Shown here piece by piece: positions 2,241-19,009 of a stretch of DNA of 64,000 nucleotides (within the stretch, counting starts at the first letter, position 1; each line of letters opens with the position of its first letter). This DNA comes from Escherichia coli (GTDB lineage Bacteria > Pseudomonadota > Gammaproteobacteria > Enterobacterales > Enterobacteriaceae). The stretch lies in NCBI RefSeq assembly GCF_041886205.1, contig NZ_CP169029.1. The stretch is one strand, 5' to 3'. The translations under genes and the position numbers were made by a program. The notes under the pieces are model-generated. The model was not told the origin of the DNA, did not search any database, and worked only from the letters and a program-made list of their open reading frames with translations.

Positions 2241-2272
2241 AAAAAGGCACCGATTCCCCCGGTGCCTTTTTT
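2241..2272. terminator. Hairpin plus flanking A/T tracts between convergent mltD and yafE; probable bidirectional intrinsic terminator
   Basis: aaaaaggcaccgattcccccggtgcctttttta: GC stem flanked by A-tract and T-tract. Confidence 0.7.
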
Positions 2273-2274
2273 AT

Positions 2275-3045
2275 TTATGCCGCTTTATGTGCTTCTACCA
2301 TGATGATATCACTGGTGAAAGAGCCATCATTCTGCAAGGAAAAATACGTTCTCACCTCTGTCGATGCGCTCTGTTGGTAAATGCGAATAGCGTCTACTAA
2401 CGCTTCTGGCGTACGCATTCTCACGACCCATGAAGAAAATTCCAGCGGTAACTTATCTGTAATTAAATTATCAACTATCAGATTGGCTTCATTGATTAAC
2501 GTCAACCACTCACCGCTGGCGTAGTTTCGTACGTGAGAGGTATCGCGTAATGCTTCTACCGTCTGTAACCAGATGTCGCGCACTGGGTGGCCCGGAGACA
2601 TTACGTCCATCACAATCAGCCTACCGCCAGGTTTCAATATCCTATTCACTTCACGCAGTGCTGCACCAACATCATGCCAGTGATGGGCAGAATAACGGCT
2701 GATAACAATATCAAATGCGTTATCGGCAAATGGCAGACTTTCGGCATAACCCTGGCGGGTGGTGATATTTTTCAGTTGCCGGGCTTCGGCAGCTTGTGCC
2801 ACGACATCCAGCATTTGGGCAGATAAGTCATACGCCACCACCGCGCTCACGTTTTGCGCAGCGACAAAGCTGGCATGCCCTGCTCCGCAGCCCATATCAA
2901 GTACACTTGCATCAGGATAATCAGCCAGACGCACCGCCAGGCGCTGTAAATCTCGTCCGGATGCATGTACGGTACTAGTCAGATATTCGCTGGCTTGAGA
3001 GCTAAACTGCTTTTCTACGTGGTCATGGTGGGATTGTGTTGTCAT
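2275..3045 (-). CDS. yafE: Class I SAM-dependent methyltransferase (UbiE/COQ5-like)
   Basis: 256-aa ORF with SAM-binding motif I (VLDMGCGAGH); position between mltD and yafD matches yafE. Confidence 0.85.
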   Translation of the reverse strand: MTTQSHHDHVEKQFSSQASEYLTSTVHASGRDLQRLAVRLADYPDASVLDMGCGAGHASFVAAQNVSAVVAYDLSAQMLDVVAQAAEARQLKNITTRQGYAESLPFADNAFDIVISRYSAHHWHDVGAALREVNRILKPGGRLIVMDVMSPGHPVRDIWLQTVEALRDTSHVRNYASGEWLTLINEANLIVDNLITDKLPLEFSSWVVRMRTPEALVDAIRIYQQSASTEVRTYFSLQNDGSFTSDIIMVEAHKAA

Positions 3046-3122
3046 TGCGCTGTCCTTTTGTTGTTTGAGTATAAAAGGGCAGCGCCAAACGTTGGTCTGC
3101 CCTGTGGCAGACCTGACATACC

Positions 3123-3974
<852 letters not shown>

Positions 3975-4163
3975 CTACTGTTATAGGGATTTTAGCTCAC
4001 TCTTTCAACGAGCAATTGTATATTGTTATGTAAGCAAGTGCTTACACCGGTCAGAATTTTGCTCATTATTGAGAACATTAAATCGGATGACATATCACGC
4101 ATCCTGATGGTTTAATGACAAATAAATTCAAAATATCTCTTCTATTTTGCAACAGGAGCAAAA

Positions 4164-6040: not shown

Positions 6041-6117
6041 TGGCGGAACGGACGGGACTCGAACCCGCGACCCCCTGCGTGACAGGCAGGTATTCTAACC
6101 GACTGAACTACCGCTCC
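6041..6117 (-). tRNA. aspU: tRNA-Asp (GUC), distal tRNA of rrnH
   Basis: Exact reverse complement of E. coli tRNA-Asp including the CCA end (tggcggaacggacgggactcgaacccgcgaccccctgcgtgacaggcaggtattctaaccgactgaactaccgctcc). Confidence 0.97.
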
Positions 6118-6169
6118 ACCGAATTCTTTTACAACCACCGGTTTTATGACCGGCTTAATGCTTAATTTG

Positions 6170-6289
6170 ATGCCTGGCAGTTCCCTACTCTCGCATGGGG
6201 AGACCCCACACTACCATCGGCGCTACGGCGTTTCACTTCTGAGTTCGGCATGGGGTCAGGTGGGACCACCGCGCTACGGCCGCCAGGCA
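6170..6289 (-). rRNA. rrfH: 5S ribosomal RNA
   Basis: 120-nt exact reverse complement of E. coli 5S rRNA (tgcctggcggccgtagcgcggtgg ... ctgccaggcat). Confidence 0.97.
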
Positions 6290-6381
6290 AATTCTTTTTT
6301 ATCAGACCGCTTCTGCGTTCTGATTTAATCTGTATCAGGCTGAAAATCTTCTCTCATCCGCCAAAACACCTTCGGCGTTGT

Positions 6382-9285
<2,904 letters not shown>

Positions 9286-9394
9286 TCACAACCCGAAGAT
9301 GTTTCTTTCGATTCATCATCGTGTTGCGAAAATTTGAGAGACTCACGAACAACTTTCGTTGTTCAGTGTTTCAATTTTCAGCTTGATCCAGATT

Positions 9395-9405
9395 TTTAAA
9401 GAGCA
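9395..9405 (-). promoter_or_regulatory. boxA-like antitermination element in the 16S-23S spacer
   Basis: Minus strand reads tgctctttaaa, matching the boxA core (TGCTCTTTAACAA) used by the rrn antitermination system. Confidence 0.5.
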
Positions 9406-9468
9406 AAACTTCGCAGTGAACCTTTGCAGGTACACTCTGAAGTATTTTTTATTTAATCACTACAGAGA

Positions 9469-9544
9469 TGGTGGAGCTATGCGGGATCGAACCGCAGACC
9501 TCCTGCGTGCAAAGCAGGCGCTCTCCCAGCTGAGCTATAGCCCC
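9469..9544 (-). tRNA. alaV: tRNA-Ala (UGC), spacer tRNA
   Basis: Exact reverse complement of E. coli tRNA-Ala(UGC) with CCA. Confidence 0.97.
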
Positions 9545-9586
9545 ATAACATGTAGTTAAAACCTCTTCAAATTTGCGGTGCAAATT

Positions 9587-9663
<77 letters not shown>

Positions 9664-9731
9664 GTAGAGGTTTTACTGCTCATTTTCATCAGACAATCTG
9701 TGTGAGCACTGCAAAGTACGCTTCTTTAAGG

Positions 9732-11273
<1,542 letters not shown>

Positions 11274-18926: not shown

Positions 18927-19009
18927 GTAGGCATGATAAGACGCGTCAGCGTCGCATCAGGCGTTGAGCGCCATTGCCGGATGCGGCGTGAACGCCTTAT
19001 CCGGCCTAC
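18927..19009. repeat. BIME: two REP (repetitive extragenic palindrome) units in inverted orientation
   Basis: gtaggcatgataagacgcgtcagcgtcgcatcaggc (18927-18962) and gccggatgcggcgtgaacgccttatccggcctac (18976-19009); canonical REP consensus. Confidence 0.85.

What the first reader, a model, noticed from the sequence alone, without database searches (positions are those of the whole stretch)
2275..3045. yafE encodes a full-length 256-aa methyltransferase with an intact SAM-binding motif
The ORF starts MTTQSHHDHVEKQF and includes motif I (VLDMGCGAGH) at residues 48-57. If I recall correctly, some reference annotations list this gene as a shorter product of about 207 aa, which would start inside or just after motif I and would not give a functional Rossmann fold. 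The sequence here supports the longer reading frame.
Basis: partly seen in the sequence, partly recalled or inferred. Interest (0 to 1): 0.2.

Follow-up and report, generated by a model that had tools for sequence, protein, structure and literature searches.

The report
Intact yafE methyltransferase; K-12 copy truncated
This E. coli strain carries the ordinary, already correctly annotated full-length (256-aa) yafE methyltransferase gene; the shorter 207-aa version in the K-12 and BL21 laboratory strains is not a mis-called start but the result of a real 221-bp deletion that removes the part of the enzyme that binds its cofactor.

Summary
Window 2275..3045 (-) is a 256-aa ORF with motif I (VLDMGCGAGH) at residues 48-57, a strong Methyltransf_11 match, and a conserved AAGGA Shine-Dalgarno 7 nt before the ATG.

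K-12 MG1655 yafE (b0210) is indeed annotated at 207 aa, but the K-12 DNA differs. It lacks 221 bp (window 2864..3084) lying between an imperfect direct repeat (TTTGGCGCTGC / TTTGTCGCTGC). The deletion removes the SD, the ATG and codons 1-~60. It fuses an intergenic ATG, 3 nt after the yafD stop, in frame to the rest (MSGLPQGRPTFG + residues 62-256).

RefSeq already annotates the intact allele at 256 aa (WP_000211708.1). Nine other enterobacterial taxa have a 256-aa yafE in the same yafD-yafE-mltD context, so 256 aa is ancestral.

About 30% of 5,426 complete E. coli genomes carry the deletion, in two junction variants: K-12 type in 1,332 genomes and BL21 type in 270.

A 2025 paper found that purified MG1655 YafE does not bind SAM, which fits the missing strand beta-1 and glycine loop.

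Verdict: an ordinary, known gene of low interest. The useful caveat is that the reference "YafE" is probably a dead remnant.

The parts
2275..3045 (-). yafE coding sequence, intact allele (256 aa plus stop)
   Evidence: ORF listing; Pfam Methyltransf_11 at 96.8 bits; annotated as a 771-nt CDS, WP_000211708.1, in the 100%-identical strain LHM10-1.
2875..2904 (-). Codons 48-57, motif I (VLDMGCGAGH): strand beta-1 plus the glycine-rich SAM-binding loop
   Evidence: Sequence. G52 and G56 are invariant in the 14-sequence alignment. The stretch aligns to VLDIGAGAGH of YcgJ, PDB 1xxl. Strand beta-1 is residues 47-51 in the AF2 model.
3053..3057 (-). Shine-Dalgarno AAGGA, 7 nt before the ATG at 3045..3043
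   Evidence: Sequence. AAGGA with a 7-9 nt spacer and the ATG are conserved in all 10 taxa compared.
2864..3084 (-). The 221-bp segment present here and absent from K-12, BL21 and about 30% of E. coli genomes. It holds part of the spacer, the SD, the ATG and codons 1 to about 60. The exact register is ambiguous within the repeat.
   Evidence: Pairwise alignment with K-12. The segment is found in 3,809 of 5,426 genomes. Junction counts are 1,332 and 270.
3079..3089 (-). Upstream copy of the imperfect direct repeat (TTTGGCGCTGC) that bounds the deletion
   Evidence: the repeat finder family D3, spacing 221 nt, 10 of 11 identical. It is extended by family D1 to about 26 nt of imperfect repeat.
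2858..2868 (-). Downstream copy of the direct repeat (TTTGTCGCTGC; codons F60-V61-A62-A63)
3040..3122 (-). yafD-yafE spacer (77 nt) and the first codons of yafE, forming a conserved, strongly folding leader. It has a hairpin at 3094..3113, a stem pairing 3073..3085 with 3047..3059 that covers the SD, and an outer stem pairing 3114..3118 with 3040..3044 that covers the AUG.
   Evidence: RNA fold -34.3 kcal/mol, z = -5.44. The consensus fold of 11 sequences has 97% of cells paired and two covarying pairs. This is suggestive only.
2241..2271 (.). GC-rich hairpin flanked by A and T runs between the convergent yafE and mltD genes; a likely bidirectional terminator
   Evidence: Terminator-like site in the scan; sequence.
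3123..3923 (-). yafD (endonuclease/exonuclease/phosphatase family, 266 aa), the upstream neighbour and probable operon partner
   Evidence: ORF; annotation. The gene order is conserved in all outgroup loci. No promoter-like site lies in the spacer; the nearest on the minus strand is at 4093..4065, upstream of yafD.

Best explanation
Window 2275..3045 (-) is the intact, ancestral allele of yafE. It encodes a 256-aa class I (Rossmann-like) SAM-dependent methyltransferase of the Methyltransf_11 / YcgJ-BH2331 type. It is translated from the ATG at 3045 using the AAGGA Shine-Dalgarno and is most likely co-transcribed with yafD. By inference, the enzyme binds SAM through strand beta-1 and the GxGxG loop (residues 47-56) and the acidic residue D73 at the end of strand beta-2, and methylates a small molecule that is still unknown. 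The 207-aa YafE of K-12 and B strains is a different allele, not a different annotation. A 221-bp deletion between imperfect direct repeats removed the SD, the ATG and about 60 N-terminal codons. It fused a spacer ATG in frame, giving a protein without strand beta-1 and without an intact glycine loop. That protein is probably non-functional.
For: Shown directly:
- ORF, motif and SD are present, with a Pfam match of 96.8 bits.
- K-12 has a 221-nt gap with repeat-bounded ends. The K-12 product reads MSGLPQGRPTFG followed by residues 62-256.
- MG1655 b0210 is 624 nt. The intact allele is annotated at 771 nt in RefSeq.
- Nine outgroup taxa (Salmonella, Citrobacter x2, Klebsiella x2, Enterobacter, Yokenella, Phytobacter, and an Escherichia lineage at 89% identity) all have a 771-nt yafE between yafD and mltD.
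- The N-terminal 61 residues are highly conserved. Codons 1-61 change mainly at third positions, for example 7/6/27 against Salmonella, as in the rest of the gene. The SD and ATG are conserved in all 10 taxa.
- The closest solved structures are YcgJ 1xxl (E=1.6e-38) and BH2331 1vl5 (E=3.7e-31). Foldseek then ranks natural-product small-molecule methyltransferases: MitM, AtmM, RebM and TleD.

Published experiment: recombinant YafE cloned from MG1655 showed no SAM binding and no methyltransferase activity (PMC12096079). The authors do not mention the truncation.

Signs of further decay: PGAP calls the FT130 and PSJ-12 deletion alleles pseudogenes 'missing N-terminus'. Strain 510016 has an IS1 inserted in the remnant. 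The K-12 haplotype carries S242F and E251D at nearly invariant positions.
Against: - No experiment on the 256-aa protein was found, so SAM binding, the substrate and the start site are inferred.
- The AF2 model is only moderate: mean pLDDT 63, with the core at 77-93 and the C-terminal lid below 50.
- The deletion ORF stays open in about 1,600 genomes. Pfam still aligns K-12 residues 4-96 to profile positions 5-95, because the fused peptide GLPQGRPTF fortuitously resembles GCGAGHASF. Residual function of the 207-aa form is therefore not excluded.
- The same 2025 paper saw fewer m6A peaks in the K-12 yafE knockout, from a single replicate, although it concluded there was no specific role.
Confidence: 0.88

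Rival explanations
1. One reading: the reference genome has the same DNA, and annotators picked a downstream start. The 207-aa entry would then be an annotation error that this window exposes.
For: MG1655 yafE is annotated at 207 aa, and UniProt YAFE_ECOLI is that same 207-aa sequence.
Against: K-12 DNA lacks 221 bp, including the ATG at 3045 and its SD. The K-12 ORF begins in spacer sequence, not inside yafE. Intact alleles are already annotated at 256 aa.
Confidence: 0.02
2. The real start of the intact gene is an internal methionine (M51 or M78), and the upstream 50-77 codons are untranslated leader.
For: In-frame ATGs exist at codons 51 and 78. The leader RNA is predicted to pair with the SD and the AUG at 3045, which could lower initiation there.
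Against: Residues 1-47 are conserved as protein across genera, with mainly third-position DNA changes. AAGGA, a 7-9 nt spacer and the ATG are conserved in all 10 taxa. Starting at M51 would remove strand beta-1. BH2331 (1vl5) aligns from residue 20.
Confidence: 0.03
3. The 207-aa K-12/B form is still a working protein. It could be a methyltransferase using the fused GLPQG loop, or it could have a non-catalytic role. The deletion would then be a tolerated or adaptive remodelling rather than gene death.
For: The ORF is open and nearly invariant in about 1,600 genomes. The Pfam domain still scores 83 bits. The start sits 3 nt after the yafD stop, so translational coupling is possible. The K-12 yafE knockout had the largest drop in m6A peaks in one data set.
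Against: Strand beta-1, D50 and the central glycine G54 are missing. The purified protein did not bind SAM and had no activity. PGAP flags equivalent alleles as pseudogenes. There is an IS1 insertion in one deletion allele and substitutions at conserved sites. A frameshift in motif I exists on a related haplotype.
Confidence: 0.1
4. The short form is ancestral, and the 221 bp in this window is a later insertion that extended the ORF.
For: None beyond the bare length difference.
Against: All nine outgroup taxa have the 771-nt gene with a homologous N-terminus and spacer. The 221-bp segment varies from 94 to 100% identity among E. coli genomes, as old sequence does. The deletion alleles are nearly monomorphic.
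Confidence: 0.01

Closest known systems
E. coli K-12 YafE (b0210, NP_414746.1, UniProt YAFE_ECOLI, 207 aa) and BL21(DE3) YafE (WP_000016015.1)
   Same: Same locus (yafD-yafE-mltD). Residues 62-256 are about 97% identical.
   Different: The reference alleles lack 221 bp, which covers the SD, the ATG, the N-terminal helices, strand beta-1 and the GxGxG loop. They start at a spacer ATG with 12 unrelated residues. The MG1655 protein does not bind SAM. The window allele is intact.
Bacillus subtilis YcgJ (PDB 1xxl / 2glu) and Bacillus halodurans BH2331 (PDB 1vl5)
   Same: These are the best solved relatives: E=1.6e-38 and 3.7e-31, about 30-34% identity, covering the Rossmann core and the C-terminal lid. 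Shared motifs include VLDxGxGxGH, SRY(S/A)AHH and LRDxSH.
   Different: Both are structural-genomics proteins without an assigned substrate, so they give the fold but not the function. The YafE N-terminal 44 residues are not covered by the YcgJ match.
UbiE/MenG (COQ5) quinone C-methyltransferases
   Same: Same class I fold and Pfam clan. Ubie_methyltran scores 65 bits over residues 36-152.
   Different: The score is far below the equivalog thresholds: TIGR01934 gives 78 bits against a cut-off of 158, and the PRK00216 models give 52-69 bits against cut-offs of 216-378. The match covers the SAM-binding core only. It is not a member.
Natural-product small-molecule methyltransferases (MitM, AtmM, RebM, TleD)
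   Same: They come next in the structure search (Foldseek E about 1e-9, probability 1.00), sharing the core and part of the lid.
   Different: Identity is only 20-31%, with a different genomic context. This supports the view that the substrate is a small molecule, and nothing more specific.

Membership tests
Class I SAM-dependent methyltransferase (Pfam Methyltransf_11, PF08241) | Domain match above the curated gathering score | tested here: met
   96.8 bits against a cut-off of 21.2, E=1.2e-27, residues 49-145 aligned to profile positions 1-95 of 95.
Class I SAM-dependent methyltransferase | Motif I: strand beta-1 followed by the glycine-rich loop (hh[D/E]hGxGxG) | tested here: met
   VLDMGCGAGH at residues 48-57. 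G52 and G56 are invariant. Strand beta-1 is residues 47-51 in the model. This motif is absent from the K-12 and BL21 alleles.
Class I SAM-dependent methyltransferase | Acidic residue at the C-terminal end of strand beta-2 that binds the ribose hydroxyls of SAM | tested here: met
   D73 in VVAYDLS is nearly invariant, lies at the end of the modelled strand 68-73, and aligns with the D of GVDAT in YcgJ.
Class I SAM-dependent methyltransferase | Seven-stranded Rossmann-like alpha/beta fold | tested here: met
   In the AF2 model the core pLDDT is 77-93, with strands at 47-51, 68-73, 94-98, 111-116, 137-146 and 190-194. All top PDB matches are class I methyltransferases at probability 1.00. The C-terminal part of the model is low-confidence.
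Class I SAM-dependent methyltransferase | Binds SAM and transfers a methyl group | not testable with these tools
   No data were found for the 256-aa protein. The only experiment used the truncated MG1655 protein and was negative.
UbiE/MenG quinone methyltransferase (TIGR01934 and PRK00216 equivalogs) | Score above the curated NCBIfam cut-off | tested here: not met
   78.4 bits against 158.35 for TIGR01934, and 52-69 bits against 216-378 for the PRK00216 models.
BioC, ArsM, UbiG, Mtf2, PmtA and other named NCBIfam methyltransferase equivalogs | Score above the curated cut-off | tested here: not met
   All 25 listed hits are below their cut-offs, for example BioC at 61.6 against 342 and arsenite methyltransferase at 70.8 against 263.
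yafE orthologue group of Enterobacteriaceae | High full-length identity and conserved position between yafD and mltD | tested here: met
   73-96% identity at 100% coverage, with 256 aa the modal length. Synteny holds in nine outgroup loci.

The most novel reading that the evidence does not exclude
The protein that databases and papers call E. coli YafE (K-12 and B strains) is a dead fusion remnant. It may have been made more than once by a 221-bp deletion at an imperfect 11-26-nt direct repeat. If so, all K-12-based negative results for YafE are uninformative, and the real enzyme can only be studied in intact-allele strains. In addition, the conserved yafD-yafE leader, which pairs with the SD and the AUG, would be a genuine translational control or coupling element.
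Probability: 0.5. Interest if true: 0.3.

Novelty: already known. Interest (0 to 1): 0.2.

Why it matters
For this window it matters little. The gene is a routine, correctly annotated class I methyltransferase of unknown substrate.

The practical value is a caveat for people using the reference strains. K-12 (MG1655, BW25113 and the Keio collection) and BL21(DE3) carry a truncated yafE lacking the SAM-binding strand and loop. Knockout screens and biochemical assays done with the K-12 allele therefore cannot say what YafE does. Examples are the 2025 search for an mRNA m6A writer, which found no SAM binding, and the earlier rRNA m6A knockout panel.

About 70% of sequenced E. coli genomes, and every other enterobacterial lineage sampled here, keep the full gene. 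PGAP also treats equivalent deletion alleles inconsistently, calling some a CDS named yafE and others a pseudogene.

Tried and rejected
1. A small ORF in the spacer as a real gene or coupling device. It starts at ATG 3119, has 25 codons (MSGLPQGRPTFGAALLYSNNKRTAQ), and its stop overlaps the yafE start as ATGA. Rejected: the start is TGG in K. pneumoniae, and a 1-nt indel shifts its frame in E. coli STLIN13.

2. A terminator/antiterminator switch (CTGCC / GGGCAG / GCTGCCC followed by a T-run). Not supported. The scan finds no terminator there, and both the minimum-free-energy and consensus folds prefer the hairpin plus an SD-pairing stem.

3. A 100-nt K-12 junction query to count deletion alleles. 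The result was uninformative because BLAST joined split matches in intact genomes. It was replaced by two 44-nt junction-specific queries.

4. Literature search for a prior description of the K-12 truncation (terms yafE, yafD, pseudogene, b0210, ECK0210, JW0200). Nothing was found in the searchable library. EcoCyc, EcoGene and UniProt curation notes could not be consulted.

5. Rfam scan. No known RNA family matches the yafD-yafE spacer.

6. Single versus multiple origin of the deletion. Haplotype tables were made but do not settle the question.

7. AF2 with a 14-sequence alignment gave only a moderate model. It was used for the core secondary structure only.

Full report
**1. The observation**

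Window 2275..3045 on the minus strand is an ATG-initiated ORF of 256 codons beginning MTTQSHHDHVEKQF. VLDMGCGAGH occupies residues 48-57, which is window 2875..2904. Because ORF listing reports the first possible start after the upstream stop, no longer in-frame version exists. An AAGGA Shine-Dalgarno sequence (3053..3057) lies 7 nt before the ATG.

The product matches Pfam Methyltransf_11 over the whole profile: 96.8 bits, E=1.2e-27, residues 49-145. Related class I methyltransferase models also match. It reaches none of NCBI's curated equivalog thresholds, including UbiE/MenG, BioC and ArsM.

**2. What the reference really has**

The window is E. coli. A 1,001-nt stretch around the gene is 100% identical to strain LHM10-1 and 95-99% identical to almost all of 5,426 complete genomes. 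In LHM10-1, PGAP already annotates a 771-nt CDS, WP_000211708.1. Other intact strains are annotated the same way.

In K-12, yafE is 624 nt, or 207 aa. This holds for ER2796 and for MG1655, b0210, 231926..232549.

The DNA, however, is not the same. Aligning the two loci shows one clean 221-nt gap in K-12, corresponding to window 2864..3084. The gap is bounded by an imperfect direct repeat: TTTGGCGCTGC at 3079..3089 and TTTGTCGCTGC at 2858..2868. The spacing is exactly 221 nt, and the repeat extends to about 26 nt of imperfect similarity.

The deletion removes most of the yafD-yafE spacer, the SD, the ATG and about 60 codons. The longest ORF left in K-12 begins at an ATG 3 nt after the yafD stop. 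It reads MSGLPQGRPTFG from former spacer sequence and continues with residues 62-256. The 207-aa entry is therefore a correct reading of a different allele, not a mis-called start.

**3. Which form is ancestral, and is ATG 3045 the start?**

Homologues in Citrobacter, Salmonella, Klebsiella, Enterobacter, Yokenella, Phytobacter and others are 256 aa and cover 100% of the query. Nine outgroup loci all show the same arrangement: yafD, then a 75-92-nt spacer, then a 771-nt yafE, then convergent mltD.

The N-terminal 61 residues are among the best conserved parts of the protein. At the DNA level, codons 1-61 differ mostly at third positions. Against Salmonella the counts are 7, 6 and 27 differences at codon positions 1, 2 and 3, with 19 synonymous and 13 non-synonymous codon changes. 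This is the same pattern as in codons 62-256. AAGGA, a 7-9-nt spacer and the ATG are conserved in all ten taxa.

The 256-aa frame is therefore ancestral and under purifying selection. Its start is as well supported as comparative data allow. No start-site experiment on an intact allele was found, and K-12 data sets cannot address the question.

**4. What the deletion costs the protein**

The closest solved structures are B. subtilis YcgJ (1xxl/2glu, E=1.6e-38) and B. halodurans BH2331 (1vl5, E=3.7e-31). The latter aligns from residue 20.

An AlphaFold model has mean pLDDT 63, with the Rossmann core at 77-93 and an unreliable C-terminal lid. It places helices at residues 3-40, strand beta-1 at 47-51, the glycine loop at 52-56 and strand beta-2 at 68-73. 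Its best PDB matches are YcgJ and BH2331, followed by small-molecule methyltransferases MitM, AtmM, RebM and TleD.

K-12 YafE lacks the helices, strand beta-1, D50 and the central glycine. By coincidence the fused peptide GLPQGRPTF mimics GCGAGHASF, so Pfam still aligns the remnant to profile positions 5-95. That is probably why it is still named a methyltransferase.

A 2025 paper cloned yafE from MG1655, purified the protein, and found no SAM binding and no methyltransferase activity on RNA or nucleotides (PMC12096079). The paper does not mention the truncation. This published negative result is what the missing motif I predicts. Earlier K-12 knockout panels also used this allele.

**5. Population picture**

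- The 221-bp segment is present in 3,809 of 5,426 genomes, and the locus itself is present in 5,424. About 1,615 genomes (30%) therefore lack the segment.
- Two junction variants exist. The K-12 type...ACGTTTGGCGCTGCGC, is in 1,332 genomes. The other type...ACGTTTGTCGCTGCGC, is in 270 genomes, including BL21(DE3) and C43(DE3).
- The two types differ at the one mismatched base of the repeat.
- Their downstream haplotypes differ by 16-18 substitutions per 1,000 nt. The K-12 downstream flank matches GENOMIC22-004 (3 differences). The FT130/BL21 flank is identical or nearly identical to the intact strains 2014C-3655 and STEC17-190 (0-3 differences).
- All sampled deletion alleles share a similar upstream (yafD) haplotype.
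- An O145 strain combines the T junction with a K-12-like downstream flank.

This pattern fits either recurrent deletion at the repeat or one old deletion reshuffled by recombination. I lean towards recurrence, but the question is unresolved.

Other inactivating lesions exist. There is a 1-nt deletion inside the motif-I codons in GENOMIC22-004, annotated as frameshifted. There is an IS1 insertion in the remnant of strain 510016. There is also a 243-aa variant lacking residues 64-76.

PGAP is inconsistent. The K-12 and BL21 alleles are called CDS yafE, while the FT130 and PSJ-12 alleles are called pseudogenes 'missing N-terminus'.

**6. Surroundings**

No promoter-like site lies in the yafD-yafE spacer. 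The nearest minus-strand candidate is upstream of yafD. A hairpin with flanking A and T runs (2241..2271) sits between the convergent yafE and mltD. Co-transcription with yafD is therefore likely, but this is an inference.

The spacer RNA folds strongly: -34.3 kcal/mol, z = -5.4. Across 11 sequences the consensus keeps three elements:

- an 8-bp hairpin with one pair varying U-A, U-G and C-G;
- a stem pairing CCUU.. with the ..AAGG of the SD, with one U-A to C-G exchange;
- GUCA pairing with the UGAC of AUGACA.

In this consensus 97% of cells are paired, and the covariation score is reached by only 6 of 500 shuffles. With only two covarying pairs this is suggestive, not proof. It could be a translational-coupling or control element. 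No Rfam family matches it. The deletion destroys the SD stem and the outer stem and keeps the hairpin.

**7. Comparison with known families, and novelty**

The protein meets every sequence and fold criterion of a class I SAM-dependent methyltransferase, and it belongs to the enterobacterial yafE orthologue group. It fails the thresholds of all named equivalogs, so its substrate is unknown. The structural neighbours point to a small molecule rather than a nucleic acid.

Nothing about the window's gene is new, because it is already annotated this way in thousands of RefSeq genomes. The one point I did not find in the searchable literature is that the K-12 and B reference YafE is a repeat-mediated deletion remnant. 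Curated database notes could not be checked.

**8. Verdict**

The gene is an ordinary known gene. Interest is low (0.2), with a practical caveat for users of K-12 and BL21.

Noticed in passing
window 3040-3122 (-); L007-L016 equivalents: The yafD-yafE spacer is conserved across genera and predicted to form a hairpin plus stems that pair with the yafE SD and AUG (z = -5.4; two covarying pairs). It could be a translational control or coupling element. It has no Rfam match.
   Followed up: partly
L001 (K-12), L017 (BL21), L004/L005 (FT130, PSJ-12), L018 (O145 RM11626): The 221-bp deletion occurs with two junction bases (G in 1,332 genomes, T in 270) and on at least three combinations of flanking haplotypes. 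K-12 and BL21 carry different variants. Recurrent deletion versus a single origin with later recombination is unresolved.
   Followed up: partly
L006 (GENOMIC22-004), L019 (strain 510016), protein P0005: Other independent lesions of yafE exist: a 1-nt deletion in the GGG of the motif-I codons (annotated as frameshifted), an IS1A insertion in a deletion allele, and a 243-aa variant lacking residues 64-76 (strand beta-2 and D73), seen on 48 contigs. This suggests yafE is dispensable in part of the species.
   Followed up: partly
L001, L017 versus L004, L005: PGAP annotates equivalent deletion alleles inconsistently. K-12 and BL21 get a normal CDS named yafE, while FT130 and PSJ-12 get a pseudogene 'missing N-terminus'. 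Intact 256-aa alleles get no gene symbol at all.
   Followed up: yes
L008, L010, L011, L012, L014 (Salmonella, Klebsiella, Enterobacter, Yokenella): These genera have an MFS transporter gene (391-396 aa) between the LysR regulator yafC and yafD. It is absent in E. coli, C. koseri, C. rodentium and Phytobacter. It may hint at the pathway's substrate.
   Followed up: no
window 6044-11273 (-): A complete rRNA operon is present: 16S at 9732-11273, two tRNAs at 9472-9663, 23S at 6382-9285, 5S at 6172-6287 and a trailing tRNA at 6044-6117. A StyR-44 match lies at 9293-9401, in the spacer just upstream of the 23S gene.
   Followed up: no
window 18930-19006, 44116-44225, 45064-45150, 54021-54066 (all -): Rfam matches above the gathering score: naRNA4 (CssrE), CssrA sRNA, t44 RNA and the HtrA 5'-UTR thermometer.
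   Followed up: no
E. coli genome searches: Two of about 5,440 matches to the yafE locus are on records labelled as plasmids, and 20 genomes have two copies of the locus. These were not examined.
   Followed up: no
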